Shown here in pieces: positions 1 to 49,319 of a stretch of 64,000 nt of DNA. Position 1 is the first letter of the stretch, and each line of letters starts with the position of its first letter. The DNA is taken from NCBI GenBank assembly GCA_029858305.1, contig JAOUFI010000001.1, positions 128,087 to 192,086 on the forward strand, read 5' to 3'. Source of the DNA: Candidatus Thorarchaeota archaeon (GTDB lineage: Archaea; Asgardarchaeota; Thorarchaeia; Thorarchaeales; Thorarchaeaceae). Position numbers and translations under genes: made by a program. The notes below the pieces were generated by a model. It made no database searches. It worked only from the letters and a program-made list of their open reading frames with translations, and was not told where the DNA came from.

Positions 1-24
1 AATGCCAAAATTAAAAGTCCAAAT

Positions 25-612
25 TTAGACCCTTAGCGAGCCACGGAACCCCCTAACGCCATAGAAAGAGGGTGCACTATTATGATACAAGAAGACAGTG
101 TTGTAGCGGCGATCCATAAAGATAGCGCCACCAAGTCTTCTAATATCAGAGGGTGTTATCACCCAACTCGATGTTGTTGTGTCGAAATTTCCAAGTTTCT
201 GCAACTCTCGATATTGTTCTTCTGTTAAAAGCTCGATACCAATGGCAGCAGCCATATCAATAGCGTTACCTTTTGGATGAATCCCCTTCTTTTCCCTCGC
301 TTCCTGGCCTTCGCGGTCATAACAGACATTTACGCGGCCCTTGGGGCTCTGTGCTGAACAATCATAAAAGATGTATTCGCCTGTCTTTTTATCATGGGCA
401 ACAACATCTGGTTCACCGCCAGTTCTTTCCATTTCATTAAGTGACCACAATTTTTCGCCATTATCTTCCAGCTTTGCTTGTACTTTAGCCCATTCAAGAC
501 CTTTATGTCGGTTCATGTTTTTTTCAAAGCGGGTTTTCAATATGCTGAGCAGTTCTTCACGTTGCTTGGGGGATAACTCCTTTTTGACTACTGTATTTGA
601 TGATTTAGGCAT
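25..612 (-). CDS. DUF4256 family protein (bacterial-type domain of unknown function). The track ORF extends to 786, but the likely start is the internal Met (MPKSSNTVV...) because the upstream extension runs into repeat copy A.
   Basis: The translated ORF has the conserved DUF4256-like C-terminal block NAIDMAAAIGIELLTEEQYRELQKLGNFDTTTSSWVITPSDIRRLGGAIFMDRRYNTVFLYHN, recognised from memory. The extension of the ORF beyond 612 overlaps the repeat element. Confidence 0.55.
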   Translation of the reverse strand: MPKSSNTVVKKELSPKQREELLSILKTRFEKNMNRHKGLEWAKVQAKLEDNGEKLWSLNEMERTGGEPDVVAHDKKTGEYIFYDCSAQSPKGRVNVCYDREGQEAREKKGIHPKGNAIDMAAAIGIELLTEEQYRELQKLGNFDTTTSSWVITPSDIRRLGGAIFMDRRYNTVFLYHNSAPSFYGVRGFRGSLRV

Positions 613-767
613 AACTATAGTTATTGTTCTGCGCTTATAAAATCGATTTTGCAGGAAAACGTTTACTTTGTAATGATTACTATTTGGATTAGTAAAGAAT
701 CCTAGGAAAGTTCCAGGATTTATCATGGGTACATATGTTTCTAGAATTACAAAATGCACTCTGAAAA

Positions 768-852
768 ATGAAAGGTGGCTCAACAATGACAGGCGAGGGA
801 AATTACCCCTGAATACCTGACCCCATCAGCCTATACCCCAAGTCCATCTGAG
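768..852 (+). repeat. Copy A of the 16S-3'-trailer-like direct repeat (atgaaaggtggctcaacaatgacaggcgagggaaattacccctgaatacctgaccccatcagcctataccccaagtccatctgagg). It has 1 indel and a few substitutions relative to copy H.
   Basis: Near-identity over about 85 nt to the sequence immediately 3' of the 16S gene (copy H at about 9519-9616). It lies in the intergenic gap between the divergent genes 25-612(-) and 1113-2258(+). Confidence 0.9.
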
Positions 853-1112
853 GTGTCAATAAGCAGAGCGTTAGACTCATCAAAGGCTTAACAGTTATAA
901 TAGAGCAGGTTCCCGAACGCTAAATCTAGCTATGCATACAATTCATCTTGGGATGTTTGAACACTACCAAAATCACGAACAACCTGCTGTAAACACTAGT
1001 TTTAATTCAATAAACCGCTCTCACTCATGGTACTTCACTCTATCTTCATGCATTTTGAAAATTGCGAGAATGGAAATTGAGGCATAGATGCAAATTGGCT
1101 AGGAAGTAAAGG

Positions 1113-2258
1113 ATGATGAAGACCAGACTCATTGTGATCACTTGCGTTCTAGGTTTAGTCCTCATTTTAAACGCAATACCAAGCTTTTTCGTGGAAGGAG
1201 CAAGCGCGAATCAAATAGTGCTAACAAAAACGGGACAAATTGATACTGGTGACGCTTACGATTTGTGGATTGATCCAGAAAATGACATAGCCTGTGTTAC
1301 GTGTGGTTACTCGGGAATCAAAATCTTTGACATAAGCGACCCCCATAGCCCAACTGGGATAGCGAACGTGTCTTCTTCTTTGAGTGGATATGCTCACCAA
1401 CTCGTCGTGCGTGATAATCTAATGTACATTGGTGATGGCCAGGGTGGACTCAAAATCATTGATGTTACAGATGTGTCTAATCCTGTTGTTTTGAACCAGT
1501 ATACTGGTGATTATGCATGGGATGTAGAAGTAATAGGAAACACTGCTTTTGTGGCCAATGGGTTTATGGGTAGTGGTGACAAACTGACGGTAGTCAATAT
1601 CACAGACCCTACGGAACCCGTGTTATTAGGAAATCATACTACAGTTGGAGATGCAACAGATATTGAGATTGTGGAGAATCTCGCATTTTTGACGACAAGT
1701 TATGCGGGATTTACTGTTTTTAACATTAGTAACCATACAAATCCAATACAACTCGGACAGTATGAAGGAGAATCAACTAGTAATGCAGAATTAGGAGACC
1801 TTGAAATCGTAGGAAACCTAGCTTTTCTAAGTTACTGGGATAAGAGCTTTAAAGTGCTCAATATTAGCGACATATCAAACATCAGAGTGCTAACGGAATT
1901 CAATGAAAGTCTGAGCACGTTTTCTGTATATATTGAGAAAGATCGCAATCTTGCCTTTCTCTGCGATTATGAATTAGGTCTTCTACTGCTGGATATTTCT
2001 ATTCCAAATCAACTTAGTGAAGTAGCCCGTTATTTTGATGGCGGCAAACCATGTCGTATTGAAGTTGTTGGTAATCTAGTCTATATGACGGACCAAGAGA
2101 ACGGATTCGTCATTCTAGAGATTGGCGAGATTAGCGGGTTCACAGTAGGCCCGGAGCATTTCTTACTCATTGGAGGTTTAGCTGCTGTCATTGTGCTGAT
2201 TTGGCAGCTGAAAAAAGGGAGAAAATCTGGTCTTAGTGCGGCAACCCTGAATACCTGA
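1113..2258 (+). CDS. LVIVD-repeat (beta-propeller) surface protein with an N-terminal signal or TM segment and a C-terminal TM anchor followed by KKGRK.
   Basis: There are repeated motifs of the GxxAxxL(V/A)V.DN.(A/M)Y(I/L)GDG..GLKIIDV/FDISD type, typical of LVIVD repeats. Hydrophobic N- and C-termini are present. The last 5 codons and the stop codon are supplied by repeat copy B. Confidence 0.75.
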   Translation: MMKTRLIVITCVLGLVLILNAIPSFFVEGASANQIVLTKTGQIDTGDAYDLWIDPENDIACVTCGYSGIKIFDISDPHSPTGIANVSSSLSGYAHQLVVRDNLMYIGDGQGGLKIIDVTDVSNPVVLNQYTGDYAWDVEVIGNTAFVANGFMGSGDKLTVVNITDPTEPVLLGNHTTVGDATDIEIVENLAFLTTSYAGFTVFNISNHTNPIQLGQYEGESTSNAELGDLEIVGNLAFLSYWDKSFKVLNISDISNIRVLTEFNESLSTFSVYIEKDRNLAFLCDYELGLLLLDISIPNQLSEVARYFDGGKPCRIEVVGNLVYMTDQENGFVILEIGEISGFTVGPEHFLLIGGLAAVIVLIWQLKKGRKSGLSAATLNT

Positions 2259-2282
2259 CCCCGTCAGCCTCCACTTCTAACC
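2244..2282 (+). repeat. Copy B, a partial copy containing only the 3' half of the repeat family (ccctgaatacctgaccccgtcagcctccacttctaacc).
   Basis: It shares the core ctgaatacctgaccccgtcagcc with the other copies and the tail variant seen in copies E and F. It overlaps the 3' end of CDS 1113-2258 and provides that gene's stop codon. Confidence 0.75.
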
Positions 2283-2285
2283 ATC

Positions 2286-2597
2286 ATGAACTATTTATTC
2301 GTTCAAGCAAATATTACACACAGGCTGTTCATTTTGTCAAATAATCAAGAATGGAGCAAAAGCTCTGAAAACTTATTATACTCATCTGAAGAGCTGAAAT
2401 CTAACCGACCAAAATGTATCTTTCGCATCCTAGCAGCAGTGTTGACATTAGGATTGATCTTGACATTTCCCGGATTTCCATTACAGCACTCACTAATCTT
2501 CGTACTTTACTTGGAGTTTTTTGGCTGTTTTATCATGATATATAGTTTCATCCATTGGAATTCAATAATGAAAAACAAGCAAAAAGATACCACTTAA
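2286..2597 (+). CDS. Small hypothetical membrane protein with 2 predicted TM helices.
   Basis: The ORF is bracketed by repeat copies B and C. It has hydrophobic segments (ILAAVLTLGLILTFPGF and LIFVLYLEFFGCFIMIYSFI). No recognisable domain was found. Confidence 0.35.
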   Translation: MNYLFVQANITHRLFILSNNQEWSKSSENLLYSSEELKSNRPKCIFRILAAVLTLGLILTFPGFPLQHSLIFVLYLEFFGCFIMIYSFIHWNSIMKNKQKDTT

Positions 2598-2686
2598 CAA
2601 AGAATTGTGCGACTAGTTTAGAAAAATTGATTCACACAAAATAATACAATCAGGGAACCAACTGGGAGATAGATATATGGAAAAAG

Positions 2687-2776
2687 GAAAAGGGTGGCTC
2701 AACAATGACAGGCGAGGGAAAGTACCCCTGAATACCTGACCCCGTCAGCCTATACCCCAAGTCCATCTGAGATGGA
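2687..2776 (+). repeat. Copy C of the 16S-trailer-like repeat. Over this span it is essentially identical to copy H.
   Basis: The sequence is aaagggtggctcaacaatgacaggcgagggaaagtacccctgaatacctgaccccgtcagcctataccccaagtccatctgagatgga. It ends with the small hairpin tccatc-tga-gatgga. Confidence 0.92.
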
Positions 2777-2804
2777 AGTTACTTGTTTTCAGTAATTGTA
2801 TCTT

Positions 2805-3431
2805 TTAGGGCTTGAATTTTTTGAAACATTTCGGACAGACTACAAAACCATCTGGCCTTATTATGCCACTAATTGAAATCTCTGAATTACAAGATGGACA
2901 ATTCTGGGTTGAACCTTGTTGGGTCTCGGGGACGTTCCCTCCCAATTTTCTTAATTCGGGCTCGGGTGAGTGCTTTTTGGTCTGTTCTGTGAGGTACTGA
3001 TCGAACGCTCTATCCGGGATGCCACTTCCCGTTGACAGATGTGTCCTGAGATTTCTGTAGTCTCCCATTCCGCGGTCTATCGCTCCTGATAACACAGCAT
3101 GCACCTTAACACCATTCGTCATCTCGGTGAACGTAAGCTCGATTAACATATAGACCACACTCTTACTGGTTGCTTTGATAGCGTCGAGAACTTTGAATGG
3201 GTTCAAAGGGTTAATGGGCAGTATTATTCCAACCTGCCAATCTGTTATCAACTGGGCAGAGTTACCTCCCATCAATAAATGGTACTTCGTTCCAATAGGG
3301 ATAACTCGCGTCCAGTGTTCAATTCCGTCAAACGCATCCTGAATAGAAGATTCAGGAGGAAGCATGAAATCCTCTTCGAATGTCCCCAAATTACGTACCA
3401 ACTCCAGGATTTGATTCGTCAAGTATCGCAT
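2805..3431 (-). CDS. Hypothetical protein with a C-terminal zinc-ribbon (CPSC...CPKC).
   Basis: This is a 208-aa ORF in the cassette between repeat copies C and D. It has a terminal C-x2-C ... C-x2-C motif. No confident family assignment could be made. Confidence 0.5.
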   Translation of the reverse strand: MRYLTNQILELVRNLGTFEEDFMLPPESSIQDAFDGIEHWTRVIPIGTKYHLLMGGNSAQLITDWQVGIILPINPLNPFKVLDAIKATSKSVVYMLIELTFTEMTNGVKVHAVLSGAIDRGMGDYRNLRTHLSTGSGIPDRAFDQYLTEQTKKHSPEPELRKLGGNVPETQQGSTQNCPSCNSEISISGIIRPDGFVVCPKCFKKFKP

Positions 3432-3506
3432 ATATGTATGTTTTGAACCTTAGTCAGGAAAAAAGGATGAAAATTGATTCAACTTATTCTGAAGCATATT
3501 GCAAAA

Positions 3507-3596
3507 GAGAAAGGGTGGCTCAACAACGACAGGCGAGGGAAAGTACCCCTGAATACCTGACCCCGTCAGCCTATACCCCAGTCCATATGAGATGGA
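3507..3596 (+). repeat. Copy D of the 16S-trailer-like repeat.
   Basis: The sequence is gaaagggtggctcaacaacgacaggcgagggaaagtacccctgaatacctgaccccgtcagcctataccccagtccatatgagatgga. It differs from copy H by a few point substitutions and one indel. Confidence 0.92.
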
Positions 3597-3605
3597 TGAC
3601 TTGTA

Positions 3606-4661
3606 TCATCCATAAACTCTTTTCAGGATTCTACAAATAAAGAAAGTAGTCCACGGAGACCACTCTTTCTTTTGACCAAAAGACCAATCTTTGAATTCAC
3701 GATATGTCGACTCAGGTGTAAAATGCCCTTTTTTATCAGCATTTGATATAACTACTGATAGCATATCTTGGAAAGCTGGTTCCTTTGACAGTACTTGATA
3801 GCGGCTCAATGTATCAAGCACTTCACCAATGTTATACCAGAAAAAGGGAGGACGAAGCTTTCGAAATCTCGTACCATGACCAAACATGTAAGGCCTTTCT
3901 TCTTTTGATCTCTCCCAACAGCTCAGAATCACCTTTCCTGCAGTAACCAGATTCTTTGGTCGCATATCTTCCGACAATAGGGAGAACAGCCGTAGAGCTT
4001 CAAGAGTCACTTGAGGGCATATATCATCCCTTTTTCCCGGACCACGGGCATTATTGACACTATTAGGTTCACATTTCCAAGCTATTCCTTGATTCGTGAC
4101 CTTGAGATGGTCAGTGATAAATGCTAGTGCATTTCGAACTTCTTTGGAGTTTTGATAACAACCAAGTAGCAGTGTTTCGGTAATGATATGTGTGTCACAA
4201 AGATTGGAGCCAAGTTCAGGTTGCTTCTTTGGAAATCTAGCTAATGATAAGAACCTCCCATTATCATCTTGTAGACTTTTCATCTGATTTAGCAAATCAT
4301 CAATGCGCTGATCATCGGTCGGTTTTACTCCAAAGTCAAAGAGGAGTAGTAAAACAGATGGAGGATAATCTGATTTATCGTGTCCCTTCACTAAATAGCT
4401 AGACCAGTCTTTGGGAAGGCTGTTAATGAGCGATTTCACTCTTTCATCGGATAAAACTAATTCTCGTTGCTTGCGAACAGAGGGATCAGTTTCTGGAATA
4501 CATAGTAAATCTACAATTGTCCTGTATCTTGTGAAGGGTTCATCACAACTAACTAACTCCAGTCTAGGATCGGTACCAAGTGGTCTTGCCCACTTGGGAG
4601 TTTCCCTAATAGCATCCTCTGCTACTTTTGGAATGTTTATCGATGACATTAGTACGTGCAA
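3606..4661 (-). CDS. Hypothetical protein of 351 aa. No confident domain assignment was possible.
   Basis: A long ORF fills the cassette between repeat copies D and E. Confidence 0.5.
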   Translation of the reverse strand: MHVLMSSINIPKVAEDAIRETPKWARPLGTDPRLELVSCDEPFTRYRTIVDLLCIPETDPSVRKQRELVLSDERVKSLINSLPKDWSSYLVKGHDKSDYPPSVLLLLFDFGVKPTDDQRIDDLLNQMKSLQDDNGRFLSLARFPKKQPELGSNLCDTHIITETLLLGCYQNSKEVRNALAFITDHLKVTNQGIAWKCEPNSVNNARGPGKRDDICPQVTLEALRLFSLLSEDMRPKNLVTAGKVILSCWERSKEERPYMFGHGTRFRKLRPPFFWYNIGEVLDTLSRYQVLSKEPAFQDMLSVVISNADKKGHFTPESTYREFKDWSFGQKKEWSPWTTFFICRILKRVYG

Positions 4662-4704
4662 TATCGAAAATCAGTCTTTTAACAAATCCTATCTCCGGGC
4701 AAAA

Positions 4705-4792
4705 ATGAAAGGGTGGTTCAACAGTACAGGTACGGAAAAGTACTCCTGAATACCTGACCCCGTCAGCCTCTACTTCTACCTATCTGAGAGAG
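4705..4792 (+). repeat. Copy E of the repeat. It is the most diverged copy and has an alternative 3' tail (cctctacttctacctatctgagagag).
   Basis: The sequence is atgaaagggtggttcaacagtacaggtacggaaaagtactcctgaatacctgaccccgtcagcctctacttctacc... The core ctgaatacctgaccccgtcagcc is retained. Confidence 0.85.
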
Positions 4793-4793
4793 A

Positions 4794-5075
4794 TTATTCC
4801 AACCACTTGTAACCTCGGCTTCTATGGATTATTTCAGTGACTCGAACATCATGATTTACTACAAAGTAGATTGCTCTATAATCACCAATGCGTAATCGGA
4901 AAAGAGGTGGTTCATCGTGAGAGATGAGTTTCTTGATGTCAGCCCCAGACCGTCTTCGAAACGGGTCATCTTCAAGCTCCTTTAGTCCGGCTTTGATTCG
5001 ATTCTTCTGCCTAAACTCTAACAGGTCCAATTGAGCCACTGCAGTCTTGGATAAGAAGATACTATACGTGGTCAA
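4794..5075 (-). CDS. RelE/ParE-family toxin (type II toxin-antitoxin mRNA interferase). The track ORF runs to 5147, but a TTG start at about 5075 gives a typical 93-aa toxin that overlaps the antitoxin stop by 14 nt.
   Basis: The C-terminal motif is RIGDYRAIYFVVNHDVRVTEIIHRSRGYKW, matching the RelE/ParE conserved core. The gene is immediately downstream of, and overlaps, a small RHH-like ORF. Confidence 0.7.
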   Translation of the reverse strand: MTTYSIFLSKTAVAQLDLLEFRQKNRIKAGLKELEDDPFRRRSGADIKKLISHDEPPLFRLRIGDYRAIYFVVNHDVRVTEIIHRSRGYKWLE

Positions 5076-5259
5076 GGGGAACGAACTCCTCTTCTTCGAG
5101 AATTCGTCTCTGTCTTCTCGCAAACTCAACCTGCTCTGCAACTTCAAGGAGGCGGCGGATTAACTCATCGTAGGTTTCACCTTTCTGACCATACTTCTTC
5201 AAGAGATCACGAGTTTCCTTTGATAAGGGAATAGTAGTTGTTTCACCCATATCTATCAT
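5062..5259 (-). CDS. Antitoxin, a ribbon-helix-helix (CopG-like) small protein paired with the RelE/ParE toxin.
   Basis: It is 65 aa, and the N-terminus (TIPLSKETRDLLKKYGQKGETYDELIRRLLE) has an RHH-like beta-alpha-alpha pattern. It has the classic upstream-overlapping position relative to the toxin. Confidence 0.6.
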   Translation of the reverse strand: MIDMGETTTIPLSKETRDLLKKYGQKGETYDELIRRLLEVAEQVEFARRQRRILEEEEFVPLDHV

Positions 5260-5261
5260 AA

Positions 5262-5295
5262 CTTATAATGTTGATAATTACTTATAACTTCATAG
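5262..5295 (-). promoter_or_regulatory. Putative archaeal promoter of the TA operon (a TTATAAG TATA-like box about 25 nt upstream of the antitoxin ATG), suggesting a leaderless mRNA.
   Basis: On the minus strand the sequence upstream of ATG 5259 reads ...aagTTATAAGtaattatcaacaTTATAAGatg. This was identified by reading the sequence only. Confidence 0.25.
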
Positions 5296-5401
5296 ATTCT
5301 GTTCCCTTATTGAATCACTAAACGATAATTAATTTTCTGTTGCAATATAAGTATGGGGCGTATTGCCTTTGTGGTACTCATGAACATAATTCTATCTCGA
5401 T

Positions 5402-6511
5402 TCAAGTATATTCGTAATTGTGATACTTTCCGAAGAATCTATTCAATTCATCCACTTCTTCTTTTAATAAGGTGTCAATATCGGTGTGAATTGTGTCAAG
5501 AGGAGTAATGAGGATAGATGGTTGTTTTTTGCGTCTTCCGAATTTCCAAGTCGCAATTGTCCATCCATCATAAATGACAGTGGAACGAATTATGCCACCA
5601 CCTGGCCAAACCTTTGGCTCATCTTCATTGGAAACTGCATGTTTTCGATTTGAATACCCAAGCAGATAGTTATCAAAAGCAGGAAGAAGACGAACAGACG
5701 GCCTCTCATTGCCACGTTCAAGTTCTAAGTCTTTAGTTAGCATTTTCATGGGATTTTTGCCACTGGTGACTTCCGTTGTTATTGGATCAAGAGTAGCCCA
5801 AGCTTTTCGAAGCCTCCTCATTGGCAATTTTGACCAAGATGACAGGTCTTCTATTGTTGCTGGCTGATATGCAGATAGGTATCGAAGAGCAAGCGCATGT
5901 AACATGGAATTCTCTTTTTCTAACGGTTTGAGATCCACCCAATCACCTAATGACCCGAAGGCTTCCTCTTTTCCTTTCGGAGCAACTTCACAGATATGTC
6001 CAAGTAACGCGGCACGACGAATGAGGTGATATGGTGCCTGACCTTTCCTGTCAAAAGTCATGCCATGATTTAGAAGAGTTTCAATTATCTCAGCACGGGT
6101 TTGTGGCCCATGTTTCTTTACACTATCCAAGATAATTTCTATCGCTGTTTCTGCAAGATTATCATTGAATCCTAGATTATTGAGCCTTTTACGACTCCGT
6201 GAAGCAAATGTTGATCCACATAGCGATAATAACCAAGAAACATCCTCAGATGCAAGATAGTGTAGTGTCCCTCTCATACACCAAGTCCGTATAATGGACT
6301 GAGAAGAAAAGCGGCTTTGGTCTATATCTTTGATTGTCAAACCTCTACTCCGAGCTTGGATACCGATATTTGCTGCTGAAACTTCTTGAGCTTGAATACC
6401 AAATACTCTAGCTACAATACTGGCTACATCCCGAGATTCATTTCTTGGTTCGAGTTGTTGTGATCTTAAACGGATTCGTCTGATAGCATCTTCAGAGAGA
6501 AAAACATCCAT
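5402..6511 (-). CDS. Winged-helix DNA-binding protein of the YcaQ/AlkZ family (putative crosslink-repair DNA glycosylase).
   Basis: It is 369 aa. The motifs (...CMRGTLHYLASEDVSWLL..., ...LLPAFDNYLLGYSNRKH..., ...YDGWTIATWKF) fit the DUF1006/HTH_42 AlkZ-like family, recognised from memory. Confidence 0.6.
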   Translation of the reverse strand: MDVFLSEDAIRRIRLRSQQLEPRNESRDVASIVARVFGIQAQEVSAANIGIQARSRGLTIKDIDQSRFSSQSIIRTWCMRGTLHYLASEDVSWLLSLCGSTFASRSRKRLNNLGFNDNLAETAIEIILDSVKKHGPQTRAEIIETLLNHGMTFDRKGQAPYHLIRRAALLGHICEVAPKGKEEAFGSLGDWVDLKPLEKENSMLHALALRYLSAYQPATIEDLSSWSKLPMRRLRKAWATLDPITTEVTSGKNPMKMLTKDLELERGNERPSVRLLPAFDNYLLGYSNRKHAVSNEDEPKVWPGGGIIRSTVIYDGWTIATWKFGRRKKQPSILITPLDTIHTDIDTLLKEEVDELNRFFGKYHNYEYT

Positions 6512-6676
6512 GTGATGTCTAATACTTCAGATTTAGAAATGTGTTTCCATGGTCTTTTCCATGGCTAGGTCGGTACTGCTTGCAAACTCCTCACGAGATG
6601 TCTGATTAATGCAGTCAACTTCATTTTGGATATTCACATAATAGAATACAAACTGAAAATGATAAACTACTACAAA

Positions 6677-6800
6677 ATAGAAAGGGTGGCTCAACAATGA
6701 CAGGCGAGGGAAAGTACCCCTGAATACCTGACCCCGTCGAGGCCCGTACCTCTTCCTGCTCCGAAGAACAGGAACAGCTGCTTCTACCTCTATGAGATAG
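6677..6800 (+). repeat. Copy F of the repeat. The 5' module is intact, then a roughly 42-bp internal replacement (gaggcccgtacctcttcctgctccgaagaacaggaacagctg, containing the hairpin ttcctg-N10-caggaa), then a tail ending in the hairpin tctat-gag-ataga.
   Basis: The first 62 nt match copy H, with divergence and insertion after gaccccgtc. The terminal small hairpin is preserved by compensatory changes. Confidence 0.85.
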
Positions 6801-6871
6801 AATACATAGGAGGTGATTGATGGAAGTGAGAATGACTCTCATCTTCTTCCATCCGCAGCTTCCGCTACGGA
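6801..6871 (+). other. Duplicated fragment of the 16S rRNA 3' terminus (aatacataggaggtgat / ccatccgcagcttccgctacgga, antisense to 16S), split by a 31-bp insertion (tgatggaagtgagaatgactctcatcttctt).
   Basis: The flanking blocks match 9611-9653, the real 16S 3' end plus the start of the trailer, except for the 31-bp insert. The HNH gene stop codon (plus-strand cta) lies within the fragment. Confidence 0.8.
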
Positions 6872-7413
6872 TTCTTTGCTAAAACACTCTCTAGACAATA
6901 AACCGTTAAAGTGGATTCATCACAAAGATAACCTAGTTCACAATTCAAGCACAACGTTTCGAGCTGCTCTCTTCCTAAGTCCAGATTTCCTTTTTCTTCA
7001 TGTAAGCGATAGAGGAGTTTCAGGTACTTTCCTTCGGCTATCCGAGGAACTTCGTTTCGTTTGTCCAGTTTGAACCATTCGTACAAGCCTCTTCCTCCCT
7101 TTGAGGAGTTGCACTCCCTACAAGCCATTACAACATTGTCGGAAGTATCGGGTCCGCCTTTACTTCTAGGTGCAAGGTGGTCGTAAGAGAGGTTCTCTGT
7201 TGCTCCACAATAGATGCATTGGTTTGGCATTTCTCGTTCGCGAATGTACTCTTGAATGGACCCTGACCATTCAATCTTTCCAGATTGGAGCTTTTTGAAA
7301 CGATTCATTATGAAGCCAAACTGATTCTTCCCGATTCCTGCTGAGGCTGAGATAATCTTGGAATATTGCCAATAGAGTAGATCTCTGATGGTCTTGACTG
7401 CAGAGGGTGGCAT
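6865..7413 (-). CDS. HNH endonuclease.
   Basis: The motif CIYCGATENLSYDHLAPRSKGGPDTSDNVVMACRECNSSKGG has the CxxC...H-N-H...CxxC architecture. The 3' end of the ORF abuts and overlaps the 16S-terminus-like fragment. Confidence 0.75.
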   Translation of the reverse strand: MPPSAVKTIRDLLYWQYSKIISASAGIGKNQFGFIMNRFKKLQSGKIEWSGSIQEYIREREMPNQCIYCGATENLSYDHLAPRSKGGPDTSDNVVMACRECNSSKGGRGLYEWFKLDKRNEVPRIAEGKYLKLLYRLHEEKGNLDLGREQLETLCLNCELGYLCDESTLTVYCLESVLAKNP

Positions 7414-7606
7414 CGTTTGACCTTCTATCTATTGTATATTCTGTTTTTTGCCTTATCAGTTTAGAGGTCATTGTTTCTCTGAATCAGTTTTCGTTTCAAT
7501 CAACTGAGAGGTCATTATATGGTGAAGAGAACAGCTCAACGATATTTTGACAGTTGCACACAAAGGAATAAAAGCTAAGAGAAGAGGGATATAGAAAGAG
7601 GGCGCA

Positions 7607-7843
7607 TTGGATGCCCTCGAAAAAGCGTGTGAGGAGGAATTCGCGATTAATTATCCCAAAATTCTATCAGTAGTAGTTTGTGTTCTCGTAGCATTGTCAT
7701 TATTGGCAGTCTTTCTTACTGGCACTGTATCATCTTATGCAAATGCGGCTATACTGACCAGTGGGTTCCAAGTAGCTGCTATTGCCTTTGGCCTATCAGC
7801 AATTGCCTTAGCCATACTAAGACTCAGCTATAGAGAAACCTGA
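7607..7843 (+). CDS. Small hypothetical membrane protein with 2 TM segments.
   Basis: It is 78 aa with hydrophobic stretches. It lies between the HNH gene and repeat copy G. Confidence 0.4.
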   Translation: MDALEKACEEEFAINYPKILSVVVCVLVALSLLAVFLTGTVSSYANAAILTSGFQVAAIAFGLSAIALAILRLSYRET

Positions 7844-7896
7844 TACTTCTCCATTCAAACTTGGTCATTGACGAGCAAATGCAAGAACGAGAAATG

Positions 7897-7978
7897 AGAG
7901 GGTGGCTCAACAATGACAGGCGAGGGAAAGTACCCCTGATTACCTGACCCTGTCAGCCTCTACCCCAAGTTCATCGGT
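7897..7978 (+). repeat. Copy G of the repeat, diverged in its 3' tail (cctctaccccaagttcatcgg).
   Basis: The sequence is gagagggtggctcaacaatgacaggcgagggaaagtacccctgattacctgaccctgtcagcctctaccccaagttcatc. Confidence 0.88.
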
Positions 7979-8121
7979 ACTAATCTATTACAACCGTTTG
8001 TATCCCTATATGAGAGAATCTGATGAAATGGGCAAAGAAAGAAGTATACATAGGTGATTGCTGTCTGAACTTCAGAGGATTTATCTGTGTGTTAGCAGTC
8101 GTATTTCGGTTTAGGAGTTAA

Positions 8122-9441
8122 TTGCAGGGATTGAGTGAGCCCGTGAGTGAGAATCTGTATGAATTTAAAAAGAAACGAGCTGAGCGGTTGCTGTCGCGTC
8201 CTTTTTGGAAACCAAAATGCAAGTTCTTAAGGACGCTGCTTCCGTCATTAACAGTATTGCTGTGTTTGCTTTTGGCCGAGTATAGCTTGCCAGCATCCGC
8301 AACCGTGGGGGCTCAACAACCGCCCATTGAGTTCGTACGCAGCATTCAGGTAACGCCAGATGATGAATTTCTAACCGGTAGCTTTGCCCGCATCAATTAT
8401 GTACCAGCAACTAGTCGTTTTGTTGTCACATTTGGAATAAAGGCAAGTACAGAACCGAACACATCCTTAGGAGCAGGATATGCCTTTAAAGAGTACAACT
8501 TGGACATGCAGGAAACTGGCAAGTCCGGAATCATCCAATGGTACCCCAATGTGCCTGGGGCGGGTGATTCGGGTTCCTGTATGGTCAACAATACCTACTA
8601 TTGTGCCTTCGTTTCGCAGACCAACCCAGAGTATGGCTGGACTATAATCAAATATGATGCAACTAATTGGACACGCTTGGAAGAATTGTTTTTCCCACTC
8701 GAAGAACCGAATCAGGGAAACTATGATCCCTGTGTCGCATATGTCAATGGACAGCTTGATATCTGCAACCAGTACAATCCTTCAGGAATCTGGCAACAGG
8801 GATTTTCCTCTCGCCATTACTTCTTTACAGCAGACCTCCAACCGATAGGAATGGTAACTGTCGATGATACTCCTCATATTTCAGGGGCTTCCATTATCTA
8901 TGAAGATGGTATCTACTACTATGTGTCTGCTAACGTCTACAATGGTGCTCTTGTTTTGATGAAATATGATAGTGATTGGAACTATCTCGGAATGAAGAAT
9001 CTAATGCCTCAAGCTCACTGGTCACAAGGCTTACTCTCTGATGGACGATTCTTCTATCTGGCATACTTGGATACTAGCCTGAGAAACCCTGACAACCCTG
9101 AGATTTTCTTTCCAGTCTATCCGAATGTGCGCCTCGCAGTGTTCGATCGCGACTGGAATCTCGTCCACATCGAGAATGTCACAGATTTTGCTCGCTCTGA
9201 TCACAAGAAGGGAGGTAGGCCCTGGGTAATTCTTCACGGAAATCTGTTGTATGTGTCTTACGATGTGGACACGGTGAACGTCACGACCGAGGAGGAGGAA
9301 CTGAAGTGGCAAGCCCACGTTAGCATCTATGAGATCTCAGAGTTGTCTGAAGGCGTTGACTTGATGTGGCCGCTGCTGACAGTAGGTATCATTTCTGTTG
9401 CAGCGATAGCAATCGCTTATGCAATCAAAAAGAAACGTTAA
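8122..9441 (+). CDS. Hypothetical exported or anchored protein with an N-terminal hydrophobic segment and a C-terminal TM anchor followed by KKKR.
   Basis: It is 439 aa. The N-terminal segment is LLPSLTVLLCLLLAEYSLPASA and the C-terminal segment is LLTVGIISVAAIAIAYAIKKKR. The architecture is the same as the LVIVD protein at 1113-2258. Confidence 0.5.
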   Translation: MQGLSEPVSENLYEFKKKRAERLLSRPFWKPKCKFLRTLLPSLTVLLCLLLAEYSLPASATVGAQQPPIEFVRSIQVTPDDEFLTGSFARINYVPATSRFVVTFGIKASTEPNTSLGAGYAFKEYNLDMQETGKSGIIQWYPNVPGAGDSGSCMVNNTYYCAFVSQTNPEYGWTIIKYDATNWTRLEELFFPLEEPNQGNYDPCVAYVNGQLDICNQYNPSGIWQQGFSSRHYFFTADLQPIGMVTVDDTPHISGASIIYEDGIYYYVSANVYNGALVLMKYDSDWNYLGMKNLMPQAHWSQGLLSDGRFFYLAYLDTSLRNPDNPEIFFPVYPNVRLAVFDRDWNLVHIENVTDFARSDHKKGGRPWVILHGNLLYVSYDVDTVNVTTEEEELKWQAHVSIYEISELSEGVDLMWPLLTVGIISVAAIAIAYAIKKKR

Positions 9442-9518
9442 CAAATGCCTAGAGAGAAGAGAAGTAAGTCTTAGATTAGGCATCTAGAGAATCTACTCAG
9501 AAAAATAGACAAATGAAA

Positions 9519-9616
9519 AAATGAAAGGGTGGCTCAACAATGACAGGCGAGGGAAAGTACCCCTGAATACCTGACCCCGTCAGCCTATACCCCAAGTCCA
9601 TCTGAGATGGACAAGC
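9519..9616 (+). repeat. Copy H, the reference copy and the native 3' trailer of the 16S rRNA gene (read on the plus strand; the trailer RNA is its reverse complement).
   Basis: It is directly contiguous with the 16S 3' end (aggaggtgatcc at about 9619-9630). On the minus strand it ends in oligo-U tracts (CCACCCUUUCAUUUUUUCAUUUGUCUAUUUUUC). Confidence 0.9.
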
Positions 9617-9619
9617 ATA

Positions 9620-11120
<1,501 letters not shown>

Positions 11121-11563
11121 TGGTCCTAATTATTGTACATGTTAGCAAGGCATGACTGGAGTAGAATTCAGTCACCATGTACAACGTTTTCACACATAGA
11201 ACTTTATTCGCTTGATGAAGTACAGGCGTAACGAGGTTAGCAGAGATGGCTTACCCTAATTATACCTGCACAATGTTGAGCCTTTCTTAGACCTGAGGGC
11301 ATTCTGACACTTGTGCCAGTCTATCTCACGTCCGCATCTTGTCATCGCATCTGGAAATCGCGGGCCATCATAGCTTGGCATTCGCCGACAGCATCCGGCC
11401 TGACACCGTATGATGCGAAAGCAAACACCCCCGCGAGGAGTTCTCATAAAAAGCTTTCCAAGGGGCCGCCAGATGCTCAATTATGCATTTATGGAAACAA
11501 TTTGGGAGTATTGAATTTACAAAAATTCGCAGGATTAGTCTTTTGAAAATGCCGTAAAAGATA

Positions 11564-18262: not shown

Positions 18263-18697
18263 ATGAGTGAAGATCCTGTATATTTTCCAGTTAGACTTGT
18301 ATGGACTGGCGGTAAGAGTGGAGAGATATCAATCGAGAGGAAAGCAATCATCAGAACAGGCACTCCTTTAGGTGATTCTAGCGAGGTGAACTACCATACG
18401 CCAGAGGACCTCTTTGTTGCCTCCGCTACAGTCTGTTACATGAATGGTTTCATCAATTTCACTAGGAAAATGCGCATAGAATTCAAAGCATTTGTTTGTG
18501 ATGCCATCGGAACTCTGGAGAAAGTAGACCGCAGCTTTGAGATAACCAAGATTGAAATGAAAACAACGGTTGAAATCGAATCTGAAGACCTTCGTGATAG
18601 GATCAATAGAGCTCTAGAACTTGCAGCCAAGTATTGTTTTGTTGGAAATAGTATGAAGTGTCCGATATCACATGATATTGAGATTGTAGTTGGATAA
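18263..18697 (+). CDS. OsmC/Ohr-family protein, the first of two tandem paralogs.
   Basis: The sequence PEDLFVASATVCYMNGFINFTRKMRIEF...AKYCFVGNSMKCPISHDIEIV shows the OsmC fold signature with a conserved Cys. Confidence 0.7.
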   Translation: MSEDPVYFPVRLVWTGGKSGEISIERKAIIRTGTPLGDSSEVNYHTPEDLFVASATVCYMNGFINFTRKMRIEFKAFVCDAIGTLEKVDRSFEITKIEMKTTVEIESEDLRDRINRALELAAKYCFVGNSMKCPISHDIEIVVG

Positions 18698-18748
18698 TCA
18701 CAACTAGAACCAAACCTTTTTTCATAATTATGAACAAAGTGGGCAAAG

Positions 18749-19192
18749 GTGATAGAGATGAGCGATGAGTCACACGAGTACTTTGTCAAAGTTGATTGGA
18801 AACACGATCGGGTCGGAAACTTGACTGTGAAAGGTAAGCCAAAAATACAGGTATCCGCACCTCCTGAATTCGACGGGCCTGAAGGAATCATATCCCCAGA
18901 GGACCTCTTTGTTGCTGCAGCAACCTCCTGTCTGATGACAACCTTTGTAACCTTTACAAAGAAATTACGTGTTGATTTCAAATCTTTCACCTGTGAGGGA
19001 CATGGAATATTAGAGAGGGTTGAGAAGGGATTTCAATTCACTAAGATTATTCTGAGAACAAAAGTGACTGTGGAATCAGAAGATTTCATACCCAAAACAG
19101 AGCGAGCATTAGAACTTGCAGGAAAGTACTGTCTTGTTGCTAATAGTATGAAGTGTCCAATCGAACACGAAAATGAAGTTGTTGTTGAATAA
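18749..19192 (+). CDS. OsmC/Ohr-family protein, the second tandem paralog.
   Basis: The sequence is PEDLFVAAATSCLMTTFVTFTKKLRVDF...GKYCLVANSMKCPIEHENEVVV. It is about 45% identical to the upstream paralog. Confidence 0.7.
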   Translation: MIEMSDESHEYFVKVDWKHDRVGNLTVKGKPKIQVSAPPEFDGPEGIISPEDLFVAAATSCLMTTFVTFTKKLRVDFKSFTCEGHGILERVEKGFQFTKIILRTKVTVESEDFIPKTERALELAGKYCLVANSMKCPIEHENEVVVE

Positions 19193-19202
19193 AGAAAGAT
19201 AG

Positions 19203-19226
19203 GGCCAATTCACGTTGGCCCAGTCA
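19203..19226. terminator. Hairpin (gggccaa-ttcacg-ttggccc) between convergent genes, a candidate bidirectional terminator.
   Basis: A 7-bp perfect inverted repeat lies in the 37-bp gap between the 3' ends of the OsmC gene (+) and the ValRS gene (-). Confidence 0.3.
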
Positions 19227-23899: not shown

Positions 23900-24019
23900 A
23901 CGTTGACAGCCGAGATAGCCAAGCCCGGTCAACGGCGGTGGACTCAAGATCACAGGTCAAAGGCTTGACTCCGAGGAGATATCCACTCTCGTAGGAGTAC
24001 ATGGGTTCGAATCCCATTC
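23900..24019 (+). tRNA. tRNA-Leu (anticodon CAA) with a roughly 32-nt intron at or adjacent to the canonical 37/38 position, a long variable arm, and an encoded CCA.
   Basis: The manual fold gives acceptor GCCGAGA/UCUCGGC, a Leu-type long D-loop (AAGCCCGGUCAAC), anticodon stem GUGGA/UCCAC interrupted by UCACAGGUCAAAGGCUUGACUCCGAGGAGAUA, loop CUCAAGA, a 14-nt variable arm, and T-arm AUGGG-UUCGAAU-CCCAU. Confidence 0.75.
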
Positions 24020-24125
24020 TCGGCACCATCTCTTCATTCACGGCTCTCGATATATCTTACGACATCATCACGGAATGATTCGCAATTTTTATTACAAATC
24101 CTAACTTCTAACTAAGTAGGAGGTA

Positions 24126-24590
24126 TTGGAGATTTCTGAAGAAATTGATTCTAACGAGCTTTTAACGCGAGATAATATTAAATCCTTGCTTCTTCTATTA
24201 GCCTTTACTACACCCTTTCTAATTACTTTCGTACGCGGACTTGGATTTGTTAACATTATATTATCCGCACCGGTGTGGACGTTTGGGACTATGGATTACC
24301 CGATCTTCAGGTTCAATACATGGGAGATGATCATTATGGGACTTCCATTTGGTCTGATCAGACTCGCATTCATCCACCAGGTATTACTCTTCAAAAAGAA
24401 TCTTACAGACTCAGGAAAACTTGTCATAGTAGGAATATTCTGTGAACTCCCGGGCCTAATTCTCAGCTATATGGCTGGAGTGCCATTTCCAAGCTTACCA
24501 TTCCCATTATTCCTCATTATTGGACTGTTGCTTGCAAAATATACGACAAAAGATCCAATATCATGGATTGAAAAGAAATCAAATGCCTGA
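24126..24590 (+). CDS. Hypothetical membrane protein with about 4 TM segments, using a TTG start.
   Basis: It is 154 aa and hydrophobic. It is located between the tRNA-Leu and its partial duplicate. Confidence 0.4.
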   Translation: MEISEEIDSNELLTRDNIKSLLLLLAFTTPFLITFVRGLGFVNIILSAPVWTFGTMDYPIFRFNTWEMIIMGLPFGLIRLAFIHQVLLFKKNLTDSGKLVIVGIFCELPGLILSYMAGVPFPSLPFPLFLIIGLLLAKYTTKDPISWIEKKSNA

Positions 24591-24638
24591 ATCTCAAGTA
24601 TCTCGTGGATTACATTCAGTTTCCTTAATCAGACATAA

Positions 24639-25079
24639 GTGGCGTTGAACGTTTCATATATTATTGGATTTCATTATTTCATGAGTACACTAGGTGAGAC
24701 CTCTTTGAAGTCTTCGCGAGCAGAGTTGATAAGAAAGATACTTCTTACAGTTGACCAACATCCATCTTCAATTTACGACATACTCTATTCTATGACAAAC
24801 TTCTCAGATCCAAAAAGAACTCGACTGCCAAAACTGCTCAAAGCAATGGAAAACGAGAATCTCGTCATTAGTGCTTTACAAGCACTGCTAAATGAGGTCA
24901 GCGAGGACCACCCTATCATGGTCACAAGAGTCTATGGTCACCTAGCCTCAGTCAATAGCATTGGACTCAAGATCACAGGCCAAAGGCTTGACTCCGAGGA
25001 GATATCCACTCTTGTAGGAGTTCGTGGGTTCGAATCCCATCCTCGGCACCATTTCCGATTTTCCAGTGTTACTTCTTAA
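24639..25079 (+). CDS. Hypothetical small protein. The C-terminal roughly 40 codons are read through the partial tRNA-Leu duplicate, so the true coding extent and even the gene's reality are doubtful.
   Basis: The N-terminal portion (AELIRKILLTVDQHPSSIYDILYSM...) might be a wH-like fold. The 3' third overlaps 24961-25051, a tRNA fragment. Confidence 0.25.
   Translation: MALNVSYIIGFHYFMSTLGETSLKSSRAELIRKILLTVDQHPSSIYDILYSMTNFSDPKRTRLPKLLKAMENENLVISALQALLNEVSEDHPIMVTRVYGHLASVNSIGLKITGQRLDSEEISTLVGVRGFESHPRHHFRFSSVTS
24961..25051 (+). repeat. Partial direct duplicate of tRNA-Leu(CAA), running from the anticodon stem, through the intron, to the 3' end plus CCA. It is about 93% identical to 23929-24019.
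   Basis: The sequence ttggactcaagatcacaggccaaaggcttgactccgaggagatatccactcttgtaggagttcgtgggttcgaatcccatcctcggcacca was compared by eye with the tRNA-Leu gene. It has 6 mismatches and no 5' half. Confidence 0.8.
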
Positions 25080-49231: not shown

Positions 49232-49319
49232 TATACTGACCCAAATCAGAGTGGTTCTTTGTTAATTTAAGGTCCTAGAAAGTGAGGACCTACGTATGGT
49301 TGAATAGATCATCATAGAC

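What the first reader, a model, noticed from the sequence alone, without database searches (positions are those of the whole stretch)
768..9616. Array of at least 8 direct copies of the 16S rRNA 3'-trailer sequence delimiting one- and two-gene cassettes
A roughly 90-100 bp element recurs at about 768, 2244 (partial), 2687, 3507, 4705, 6677, 7897 and 9519. Its conserved core is aaagggtggctcaacaatgacaggcgagggaaagtacccctgaatacctgaccccgtcagcc, followed by a tail that ends in a small hairpin such as gtccatc-tga-gatggac. All copies are in the same orientation and all lie in intergenic gaps. Copy H is the native 3' trailer of the 16S gene itself.

The copies partition 9.6 kb into single-gene cassettes and one two-gene toxin-antitoxin (TA) cassette. 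The cassette genes lie on either strand. They include an LVIVD surface protein, a RelE/RHH TA pair, an AlkZ-like glycosylase, an HNH endonuclease, a DUF4256 protein and several small membrane proteins. The array stops at the 16S gene, and no copy is seen in the remaining 53 kb. Copies nearer the 16S gene are closer to the reference, and distal copies are more diverged or truncated.

This looks like iterative site-specific insertion or recombination using the 16S 3' flank as an att-like site. It differs from integron attC sites, which are conserved in structure and not in sequence. The alternative is propagation of the 16S terminator/3'ETS module. On the minus strand every copy ends in an oligo-U tract, such as CCACCCUUUCAUUUUUU, which fits an archaeal intrinsic terminator.

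Either way, an rRNA-trailer-derived repeat that organises an accessory cassette array is unusual and, to my knowledge, not a described system.
Basis: partly seen in the sequence, partly recalled or inferred. Interest (0 to 1): 0.88.

Follow-up and report, generated by a model that had tools for sequence, protein, structure and literature searches.

The report
Cassette array built on 16S trailer
Downstream of the 16S rRNA gene of a Thorarchaeota (Asgard) archaeon, copies of the rRNA's own 3' processing-stem and terminator sequence separate small accessory-gene modules that differ between related genomes, so the rRNA flank appears to serve as a landing pad for gene exchange.

Summary
Eight same-orientation copies (one partial) of a ~95-nt element lie at 764-9618 and nowhere else in the 64 kb. 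A ninth, truncated copy lies about 0.8 kb beyond the window start.

The element is the 3' strand of the pre-16S processing helix plus an oligo-T. Copy H pairs over about 75 bp with the 16S leader (z = -7).

The architecture is not private to this genome. Arrays of 2-8 copies follow the 16S gene, or sit at contig ends, in at least 12 other Thorarchaeota assemblies. A more distant relative has only the native trailer.

Related genomes differ by whole cassettes, with breakpoints inside the repeats. The same cassettes (RHH-RelE, a 255-aa GNAT, VapBC, ORF151) recur in different orders. Cargo is toxin-antitoxin, GNAT, restriction and defence genes.

Copy F and the ninth copy also carry the last ~50 nt of a 16S gene, of a type that is native in another lineage.

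Best reading: tandem accretion of cassettes at an att-like site, the 16S 3' end and trailer, later reshuffled by homologous recombination. No recombinase was found and the elements are not attC-like. The claimed identity gradient towards the 16S is wrong. I rate it a new variant of a known kind, moderately to highly interesting.

The parts
762..857 (-). Copy A of the trailer element (short, H-like type). It is 95.6% identical to H. It lies between the DUF4256 gene and the LVIVD cassette.
2244..2285 (-). Copy B, only the 16S-proximal part of the element (from CCCTGAATACC onward). It is a deletion scar fused to the 3' end of the LVIVD gene. In L004 an ORF151 cassette and a full element lie at this position.
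2678..2776 (-). Copy C, 100% identical to H over 89 nt. It is the left breakpoint of the two-cassette indel relative to L004.
3497..3597 (-). Copy D (95.6% identical to H). It follows ORF347 on the 16S strand.
4699..4790 (-). Copy E, a diverged type (83% identical to H). It is co-inherited with the RHH-RelE module: the block is 95% identical to L004 5068-5622. It is the right breakpoint of the indel.
6670..6881 (-). Copy F, the 'F-type' variant. It comprises the trailer core, an extra UUCG-loop hairpin, AUCACCUCCU, a ~30-nt insert and a helix-45 copy. That is the last ~50 nt of a 16S gene plus the trailer, as found natively in L064.
7890..7975 (-). Copy G (89.8% identical to H; hairpin lost).
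9513..9618 (-). Copy H, the native 16S 3' trailer. In order it has a hairpin, the 3' strand of the processing helix (9523-9616) and an oligo-T.
9619..11120 (-). 16S rRNA gene (no 23S rRNA gene in the window).
11210..11286 (-). 16S 5' leader segment that pairs with trailer H, forming the other strand of the processing helix.
28..612 (-). DUF4256 gene. It lies between copy A and the ninth (off-window) relic. A homologue also sits in the distal flank of the L071 array.
1113..2258 (+). LVIVD-repeat protein cassette, shared with L004 at 70% amino-acid identity. Its stop codon lies inside copy B.
2286..2597 (+). 103-aa membrane protein cassette, 90% identical at the amino-acid level in L004.
2805..4649 (-). 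ORF208 (2805-3431) and ORF347 (3606-4649), two cassettes with no Pfam, NCBIfam or PADLOC match. Both are absent from L004.
4794..6511 (-). AlkZ-like gene (5402-6511) followed by the RHH/DUF7557-RelE/ParE module (5259-4794). The toxin-antitoxin module recurs in L004, L006, L007 and L063 behind different genes.
6865..7413 (-). HNH endonuclease gene immediately upstream (on the 16S strand) of copy F. It was not found in any other array.
7607..9441 (+). 78-aa membrane protein (7607-7843; a homologue is in the L063 array) and a 439-aa membrane-anchored protein (8122-9441). Both are antisense to the 16S.

Best explanation
The repeated element is the 3' external transcribed spacer of the 16S rRNA gene. 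It is the strand that pairs with the 5' leader to form the pre-16S processing helix, and it ends in an oligo-T terminator.

In one clade of Thorarchaeota this sequence, and sometimes the last ~50 nt of the 16S gene as well, acts as an attachment site. Small accessory modules (1-3 genes with their own promoters) insert there and bring their own copy of the trailer. The 16S gene therefore keeps a working 3' end and processing strand, and the displaced copy is pushed outward. Repetition builds a tandem array of cassettes separated by same-orientation trailer copies. This is the way genomic islands grow at tRNA genes.

Afterwards, homologous recombination and gene conversion between the copies delete, fuse, reshuffle and homogenise cassettes and elements.

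Shown:
- the identity of the element;
- conservation of the array architecture next to the 16S gene;
- cassette presence/absence with breakpoints in the repeats;
- cassette sharing between genomes;
- foreign-type 16S ends inside the array;
- mosaic elements.

Inferred:
- insertion is catalysed by a site-specific enzyme acting in trans (unidentified);
- cassettes pass through a circular intermediate;
- the trailer copies also terminate transcription of the sense-strand cassette genes.
For: 1. Native role of the element. Trailer H pairs with the leader at -89 kcal/mol, against -54.7 +/- 4.8 for shuffles (z = -7.1) and -55 on average for 50 other genomic segments.

2. The same architecture occurs elsewhere.
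- Arrays lie directly downstream of an assembled 16S gene in L011 (3 copies), L063 (8 copies) and L064 (3 copies).
- Arrays lie at contig ends or on short contigs in L004, L005, L007/L071, L009, L010, L060 and L061.
- Contigs carrying the conserved upstream neighbour gene usually break at the 16S.
- The more distant genome L067 has only the native trailer.

3. The element is not dispersed. It was found on one contig per genome in 9 species representatives and is absent from the other 54 kb of the window.

4. Indels fall at the repeats. L004 has a single chimeric element, with the left arm of C and the right arm of E, where the window carries ORF208 and ORF347. B is a scar of the loss of the ORF151 cassette.

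5. Cassettes are shared between arrays in different orders: RelE in 5 arrays, GNAT-255 in 4, VapB in 4 and ORF151 in 3. Homology among the GNAT-255 copies and among the ORF151 copies starts exactly after the T-run of the upstream element, whatever that element's type.

6. Relics carry 16S sequence.
- Copy F and the off-window ninth copy carry helix 45, a ~30-nt insert and AUCACCUCCU. That arrangement is the genuine 16S 3' end in L064 but not in this genome.
- The ninth copy sits at the far edge of the island, next to conserved flank genes (SBF, RACo). A displaced original 3' end is expected in that position.
- The 5' limits of these pseudo-16S pieces cluster within about 12 nt of GTCG/TAACAAGGTATCC, next to unrelated cargo.

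7. The same genome has a classic att-type scar at a tRNA gene, a 105-nt repeat flanking a 0.92-kb insert that is absent in relatives.

8. The cargo is typical of mobile islands and integron arrays: PIN/VapBC, ParE/RelE, GNAT, restriction-modification, AriA/OLD-like ATPase and nSTAND NTPase genes.
Against: - No integrase, recombinase or transposase was found in or next to about 15 arrays, including 10 kb beyond the window start and 7 kb beyond the L071 array.
- The element has no inverted-repeat core of the kind tyrosine recombinases use, and no marked self-structure.
- Crossovers are not at one point. Tail type, core type and presence of the pseudo-16S piece assort freely.
- Most copies (6 of 8 here) have no pseudo-16S part, and their 16S-proximal ends are ragged within about 12 nt.
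- Copy C is 100% identical to H although it lies 6.8 kb away, which points to gene conversion.
- No copy of the element was found on any viral contig, so no attP-bearing donor is known.
- One genome (L063) has two copies at a second locus.
Confidence: 0.5

Rival explanations
1. Homologous recombination only. The 16S gene and its processing-stem trailer are conserved between Thorarchaeota lineages because of their rRNA function. They therefore act as portable homology arms. DNA from a relative, of the form 16S 3' end - trailer - cassette - trailer, is incorporated by double crossover, or by Campbell-type integration of circles looped out between two trailer copies. No dedicated recombinase exists.
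For: - No recombinase was found near any array.
- The elements are mosaic, with crossovers in at least three segments.
- Elements are homogenised within an array: mean identity is 0.92 in the window against 0.65 between genomes, and C equals H.
- B is a deletion scar with microhomology.
- The array's G+C content equals that of the rest of the genome, 41.9% against 43.0 +/- 1.4%, which suggests exchange among relatives.
- There is no palindromic core.
Against: - The homology is short (70-95 nt) and only 65-90% identical between element types, a poor substrate for homologous recombination.
- The shared outer limits are sharp: after the T-run, at the hairpin, and at TAACAAGG in the 16S. These limits sit next to unrelated cargo.
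- Pseudo-16S pieces inside the array require a duplicative event, not replacement.
Confidence: 0.3
2. A functional RNA or terminator module. The trailer copies are kept because they terminate, process or stabilise the transcripts of neighbouring genes. The array is then a product of selection for that function, and not a record of insertions.
For: - Every full copy ends in an oligo-T on the 16S strand.
- 50 of 79 ORFs inside arrays are on that strand, usually with the stop codon 20-100 nt before the element.
- The GGGTGGCTCAACA end survives even in truncated copies.
- F-type copies keep a UUCG-loop hairpin through compensatory changes.
Against: - Copies are confined to one locus per genome, not spread among genes in general.
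- There is no conserved intramolecular fold and no covariation.
- 29 of 79 ORFs are antisense to the element.
- This reading does not explain pseudo-16S ends, cassette indels at the repeats, or cassette sharing between genomes.
- No Rfam family matches the element.
Confidence: 0.08
3. A canonical integron cassette array lacking its integrase (a CALIN), of the kind reported in Asgard archaea.
For: - Repeats run in one direction and separate 1-2-gene cassettes.
- The cargo is rich in toxin-antitoxin and GNAT genes.
- Repeats are more alike within an array than between arrays.
- A GTTGAGC heptamer fitting the GTTRRRY consensus lies at the cassette-proximal end of every copy.
Against: - There is no R''/R' or L''/L' palindromy and no hairpin. 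The consensus fold is -2.5 kcal/mol, and single-strand z-scores range from -2.5 to 0.
- The partner sequence GGCTCAAC exists only in the 16S leader.
- Published archaeal attC sequences are unrelated, and the element's core strings (GGCTCAAC, GTTGAGCC, GACGGGGTCAGG, CCTGACCCCGTC) do not occur in that paper's data files.
- No IntI was found.
Confidence: 0.03
4. An assembly artefact, in which the repeats cause chimeric joins.
For: Repeats and rRNA genes commonly break or mis-join metagenome assemblies. Many related contigs do end at this locus.
Against: - Two public assemblies are identical over 9.77 kb.
- The same architecture appears in more than 12 independent assemblies.
- Orthologous cassette blocks span the repeats at 93-95% identity in L004.
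Confidence: 0.02

Closest known systems
Tandem accretion of integrative elements at the 3' ends of tRNA/tmRNA genes (e.g. Prochlorococcus tycheposons and their islands, bioRxiv 10.1101/2020.12.28.424599; archaeal tRNA-integrating elements, from my own knowledge)
   Same: - Direct repeats made of the 3' part of a structural-RNA gene flank the inserted cargo.
- Successive insertions push older ones outward.
- Degenerate, integrase-less remnants and partial repeats are scattered through the island.
- A displaced 3' end lies at the far edge. The window itself has such a scar at a tRNA gene.
   Different: - The target is the 16S rRNA 3' end and 3' ETS, not a tRNA gene.
- Units are very small (0.4-2 kb) and numerous (up to 9 in 10.5 kb).
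- No integrase or integrase fragment was seen in any array.
- The repeat is a processing-helix strand that must stay complementary to a leader 1.7 kb away.
Integron cassette arrays / CALINs, including those reported in Asgard archaea (Ghaly et al. 2022, PMC9668308)
   Same: - Same-orientation repeats delimit one- or two-gene cassettes.
- Toxin-antitoxin and GNAT cargo is common.
- Repeats are more similar within an array than between arrays.
- Cassettes are reshuffled between genomes.
- The array starts at a fixed anchor.
   Different: - The repeats are not attC sites, because they lack the folded palindrome.
- No IntI was found.
- Cassettes carry their own TATA-like promoters and about a third are inverted.
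- The anchor is an rRNA gene end, not attI.
HeimM2 / HeimV2 of Candidatus Heimdallarchaeum (Wu et al. 2022, PMC8813620)
   Same: Mobile elements in an Asgard archaeon are inserted exactly downstream of the only 16S rRNA gene, and two different elements use the same site.
   Different: - Those are single 8-kb and 44-kb elements, one carrying a homing-endonuclease-like gene.
- No repeated trailer copies or multi-cassette array were described.
- The lineage and neighbouring genes are different.
Archaeal pre-rRNA processing stem (leader-trailer helix with a bulge-helix-bulge site; PMC7038931, PMC8339473)
   Same: Copy H is exactly this. It is the trailer strand, abutting the 16S 3' end and pairing with the leader.
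   Different: The known stem is a single leader-trailer pair per rRNA gene. Here 7-8 extra trailer strands with no leader partner follow.
SCC composite islands at rlmH in staphylococci, and pdif modules on Acinetobacter plasmids (from my own knowledge)
   Same: Repeated copies of one short recombination site delimit small modules, some of which lack their recombinase. Toxin-antitoxin modules are common.
   Different: Those sites are short and their recombinases (Ccr, XerC/D) are known. pdif sites alternate in orientation, and neither site is derived from rRNA.

Membership tests
Archaeal pre-16S processing stem / 3' ETS (copy H) | Lies immediately 3' of the mature 16S end. | tested here: met
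   The 16S gene ends at 9619 and the element spans 9513-9618.
Archaeal pre-16S processing stem / 3' ETS (copy H) | Long complementarity to the 5' leader. | tested here: met
   A ~75-bp duplex forms between 9523-9616 and 11210-11286. Its energy is -89 kcal/mol against -54.7 +/- 4.8 in shuffles.
Archaeal pre-16S processing stem / 3' ETS (copy H) | A canonical bulge-helix-bulge motif for the splicing endonuclease. | tested here: inconclusive
   The minimum-free-energy duplex shows a 5-nt trailer bulge (GUAUU) and a 1x1 mismatch inside the invariant 20-mer, not a clean 3-4-3 motif.
Integron attC / CALIN | An imperfect palindrome (R''-L''...L'-R') that folds as a single-stranded hairpin. | tested here: not met
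   The consensus fold is -2.5 kcal/mol with 0 covarying pairs. DNA folds have z-scores of -2.5 to 0 and contain only the small terminal hairpin.
Integron attC / CALIN | A GTTRRRY core at the cassette boundary. | tested here: met
   GTTGAGC (variants GTTGAAC, GTTAAGC) is present near the T-run end of almost every copy. The chance of such a heptamer somewhere in a 95-nt element is about 0.2, so this is weak evidence.
Integron attC / CALIN | An IntI tyrosine recombinase and attI at the head of the array. | tested here: not met
   The head of the array is the 16S gene. Pfam finds no recombinase in the window cassettes, the L001 flank, L063, L064 or L071.
att-site tandem accretion at a structural-RNA gene | Direct repeats that contain the 3' part of the target gene. 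| tested here: met
   Copy F and the ninth copy contain 16S helix 45 through the 3' end plus the trailer. All copies contain the trailer.
att-site tandem accretion at a structural-RNA gene | Insert presence/absence between relatives, with junctions in the repeats. | tested here: met
   The window and L004 differ by the ORF208+ORF347 indel and by the ORF151 indel.
att-site tandem accretion at a structural-RNA gene | An integrase encoded in the element or island. | tested here: not met
   None was found in about 15 arrays. A trans-acting enzyme elsewhere in the genome could not be searched for.
att-site tandem accretion at a structural-RNA gene | An excised circular form, or attP on a free element. 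| not testable with these tools
   There is no read-level data. No viral contig carries the element.
Dispersed intergenic repeat (MITE/REP-like) | Many copies scattered over the genome in both orientations. | tested here: not met
   The element is on one contig per genome in 9 species representatives. None is found in the other 54 kb of the window or in about 60 kb of core flanks of relatives, apart from a two-copy mini-array in L063. Whole genomes could not be scanned with the profile.

The most novel reading that the evidence does not exclude
A gene-capture platform native to Asgard archaea that works like an integron but is built on the ribosomal RNA gene. An as-yet unknown recombinase would insert small cassettes at the 16S 3' end or 3' ETS. 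Each cassette would bring a replacement copy of the rRNA's last nucleotides and processing strand. Insertions would then rewrite the end of the cell's only 16S gene, sometimes with another lineage's version, and would leave a readable stack of past events.
Probability: 0.3. Interest if true: 0.85.

Novelty: new variant of a known kind. Interest (0 to 1): 0.68.

Why it matters
- If correct, this shows that in a clade of Asgard archaea the flank of the 16S rRNA gene (the only copy found in this window) is the main local site of gene flux for toxin-antitoxin, defence and other accessory genes. Islands at tRNA genes, and integrons, play this role in bacteria.
- It gives a natural and conserved landing pad that could be used to insert genes once these organisms become genetically tractable.
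- It shows that the 3' end of a 16S gene and its spacer can be exchanged between lineages, which is relevant to 16S chimeras and to primer-site evolution at 1492R.
- It explains why Thorarchaeota assemblies so often break at the 16S gene, leaving the 16S and its variable island unbinned.
- The stack of trailer copies is a record of past insertions that can be read in metagenomes.

Tried and rejected
- Rfam. No family matches the element at gathering or E<=1 thresholds.
- attC site. Rejected for lack of palindromy. The element's core strings do not occur in the data files of Ghaly et al., and the attC sequences listed there look different.
- Plus-strand readings. I considered a 17-codon micro-ORF starting at ATGAAAGGG, C/D-box motifs, and a leader with the Shine-Dalgarno-like AGGAGGTGAT before an ATG. 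The ATG is missing in C, D and F and the frame is broken in A. The AGGAGGTGAT turned out to be the complement of a 16S 3' end.
- HNH as the conserved engine of the system. The HNH gene occurs only in this window's array.
- A viral or plasmid donor carrying the element. The 20-mer gave 0 hits in the viral collection. The 48 hits of a 15-mer were seed-only chance matches.
- Identity gradient towards the 16S gene. Refuted.
- Leader pairing as a discriminator of native versus foreign copies. The duplex energies are too similar to be informative.
- Foreign base composition of the cassettes. There is none.
- Bacterial-type promoter and terminator scan. Not informative for an archaeon.
- Lost look-ups. 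Two look-ups of window proteins failed because of start or stop coordinates. Four look-ups of neighbour-gene homologues returned contigs broken at the 16S gene.
- The metagenome scan added only three short contigs.

Full report
OBSERVATION

The repeat is real. The repeat finder reports 6-8 same-orientation copies of a 40-97-nt unit between 761 and 9611. Two sub-patterns of the core give 7 and 6 matches where dinucleotide shuffles give 0.00. A profile built from the copies finds nothing else in the 64 kb; every other hit has E>1.

Rfam places an archaeal 16S rRNA at 9619-11120 on the minus strand and finds no 23S gene. Copy H (9513-9618) therefore directly follows the 16S 3' end. All copies are 'sense' with respect to the 16S transcript, and on that strand each ends in an oligo-T.

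An independent ENA assembly is identical over window 1-9768 and breaks inside the 16S gene. In that contig a ninth, 5'-truncated copy lies 0.75-0.9 kb beyond the window start, between a DUF1801 gene and an SBF transporter gene.

One claim fails. Identity to H is 89.8, 88.8, 83.1, 95.6, 100, 84.8 and 95.6% for G, F, E, D, C, B and A, so there is no decay with distance from the 16S gene.

WHAT THE ELEMENT IS

On the 16S strand, the trailer from 9616 down to 9523 pairs with the 5' leader at 11286-11210 in a ~75-bp imperfect helix. The duplex energy is -89 kcal/mol. Shuffled trailers give -54.7 +/- 4.8 (z = -7.1), and 50 other genomic segments give -55 on average with a best value of -69.

This is the classical archaeal pre-16S processing stem, established for other archaea (PMC7038931, PMC8339473). 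A clean bulge-helix-bulge motif was not resolved.

The element alone has no notable fold. The consensus structure is -2.5 kcal/mol with no covarying pair, and single-strand z-scores run from -2.5 to 0, owing to the small terminal hairpin. No Rfam family matches it.

THE ARCHITECTURE IS CONSERVED IN A CLADE OF THORARCHAEOTA

A 20-mer from the core occurs on exactly one contig in each of nine Thorarchaeota/'Promethearchaeota' species representatives, plus one chance bacterial hit. The profile shows that these contigs carry arrays of 2-7 same-orientation copies spaced 0.5-4 kb apart. Three short metagenome contigs add arrays of up to 4 copies.

I used the conserved M1-aminopeptidase gene that lies upstream of the 16S gene as a handle.
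- Two long contigs were recovered in which the 16S gene is assembled and is followed by 8 copies (L063) and 3 copies (L064). L011 has 3 copies.
- Other contigs of this neighbourhood stop at the 16S gene.
- The contig carrying the L007 array starts with the array.
- A more distant Thorarchaeon (neighbour protein 69% identical) has only the native trailer.

The distal flank is syntenic between genomes: SBF and RACo genes in the window's contig and in L010, and DUF4256 in L071. L063 also has two copies at a second locus 12 kb away. That is the only exception seen in about 120 kb of non-array sequence.

THE REPEATS ARE RECOMBINATION JOINTS

L004 shares the LVIVD cassette, the 103-aa membrane-protein cassette and the RHH-RelE cassette with the window, at 74-95% nucleotide identity. 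There are two differences.
- Between the membrane-protein gene and RelE, L004 has one element. Its left arm and flank match window copy C, and its right arm and flank match copy E. The window has C, ORF208, D, ORF347 and E at this place.
- L004 has an ORF151 cassette where the window has only the truncated copy B fused to the LVIVD 3' end. That junction shows microhomology.

Clustering of array ORFs gives cassette families shared between arrays in different orders: RelE in 5 arrays, a 255-aa GNAT in 4, VapB in 4 and ORF151 in 3. For GNAT-255 and ORF151 the homology between genomes starts immediately after the T-run of the upstream element. This holds whichever type that element is, and for GNAT-255 the homology ends at the stop codon.

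The RHH-RelE module has its own TATA-like box. It is found behind three different genes, always in front of an element.

Cargo across arrays is PIN/VapBC, ParE/RelE, GNAT, restriction-modification, an AriA/OLD/GajA-like ATPase with an Mrr-like nuclease, and an nSTAND NTPase. The G+C content of the array equals that of the rest of the window.

ELEMENT TYPES, AND FOREIGN 16S ENDS

Copies fall into three types.
- A short type, like H.
- A long type, which is native in L063.
- An 'F-type', which adds a UUCG-loop hairpin (its stem varies with compensating changes), then AUCACCUCCU, a ~30-nt insert and a perfect copy of 16S helix 45.

F-type copies occur in the window (F and the ninth copy) and in L003, L007 (two), L010, L060, L061 (two) and L063. 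In L064 this exact arrangement is the genuine 3' end of the 16S gene and its native trailer.

The window's array therefore contains two relics of a 16S 3' end of a kind that its own 16S gene does not have. One of them sits at the outer edge of the island.

The 5' limits of the pseudo-16S pieces cluster within about 12 nt of GTCG/TAACAAGGTATCC, next to unrelated upstream genes. The real 16S gene of L063 has a 30-nt insertion at that very spot.

Types are mixed within arrays, and the segments (tail, core, pseudo-16S) assort freely. Within-array identity is high in the window (0.92) and lower elsewhere (0.53-0.85), against 0.65 between genomes.

MECHANISM

The pattern is that of islands growing at the 3' end of a structural-RNA gene. 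Incoming DNA brings a replacement copy of the gene's end, and the old end is displaced outward. Repetition stacks cassettes between direct repeats. Later homologous recombination deletes, fuses and homogenises.

Prochlorococcus tycheposon islands at tRNA genes show the same logic. The window itself has such a scar at an intron-containing tRNA gene, a 105-nt repeat flanking a 0.92-kb insert that is absent in two relatives. In Heimdallarchaeum, two mobile elements insert exactly downstream of the 16S gene.

What is missing is the enzyme. No recombinase was found in or beside about 15 arrays, and no viral contig carries the element.

I therefore put about 0.5 on site-specific accretion by a trans-acting enzyme followed by homologous reshuffling. 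I put about 0.3 on homologous recombination alone, with the conserved 16S gene and trailer as portable homology. A purely functional terminator/3'-UTR module gets about 0.08, and a canonical integron or an artefact gets a few per cent each.

COMPARISON AND NOVELTY

The elements fail the defining structural test for attC sites, and no IntI is present. They also differ from the archaeal attC sequences published by Ghaly et al..

They meet two of four defining features of att-type accretion: repeats containing the gene's 3' part, and indels at the repeats. They lack an integrase, and an excised form could not be tested.

Full-text searches found no description of repeated 16S trailers framing cassettes.

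I classify the finding as a new variant of a known kind. It is a tandem cassette island whose attachment sequence is the 16S rRNA 3' end and processing spacer, conserved in a clade of Asgard archaea.

Noticed in passing
window 23909-25055: An intron-containing tRNA gene (23909-24028) and a 105-nt copy of its 3' part (24951-25055) flank a 0.92-kb insert with a small membrane-protein ORF (24126-24590). In L065 and L067 the tRNA gene directly abuts the PolX gene. This is a classic integration scar with no integrase.
   Followed up: yes
window 6543-6617: A 75-nt stretch between the AlkZ start and copy F is 87% identical to the 3' part of a TnpB-like ORF (Cas12f1-like TNB domain) in L008 6100-6174. 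It is probably a relic of an IS200/605-type element end.
   Followed up: no
L064 7692-7839; L063 7925-8120; L068 695-1543: Thorarchaeota 16S genes carry small and large insertions. L064 has about 30 nt between helix 45 and the 3' tail. L063 has about 30 nt at GTCGTAA^TAACAAGG and about 40 nt further in. L068 has about 850 nt. Whether these are introns or expansions is unknown.
   Followed up: partly
L063 21840-22451: A second mini-array lies 12 kb on the other side of the 16S gene. Two trailer-like copies, in the opposite orientation, flank a 141-aa membrane-protein gene.
   Followed up: partly
L063 1047-1814 and homologues (P0121-P0240): The 255-aa GNAT cassette family has homologues at 64-68% identity that their sources label as bacterial (Vicinamibacterales, Trueperaceae). 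This hints at cross-domain transfer.
   Followed up: no
window 48989-49571 and 18609-19208: Two further local direct repeats were seen: a 340-nt period at 71-75% identity, and a 105-nt pair 495 nt apart at 75% identity. Both are unrelated to the trailer element.
   Followed up: no
window 1-64000: No 23S or 5S rRNA gene lies within 64 kb of the 16S gene, so the 16S gene is unlinked from the rest of the rRNA genes here. In several relatives the same M1 aminopeptidase gene lies next to the 16S gene (divergently oriented in this window).
   Followed up: partly
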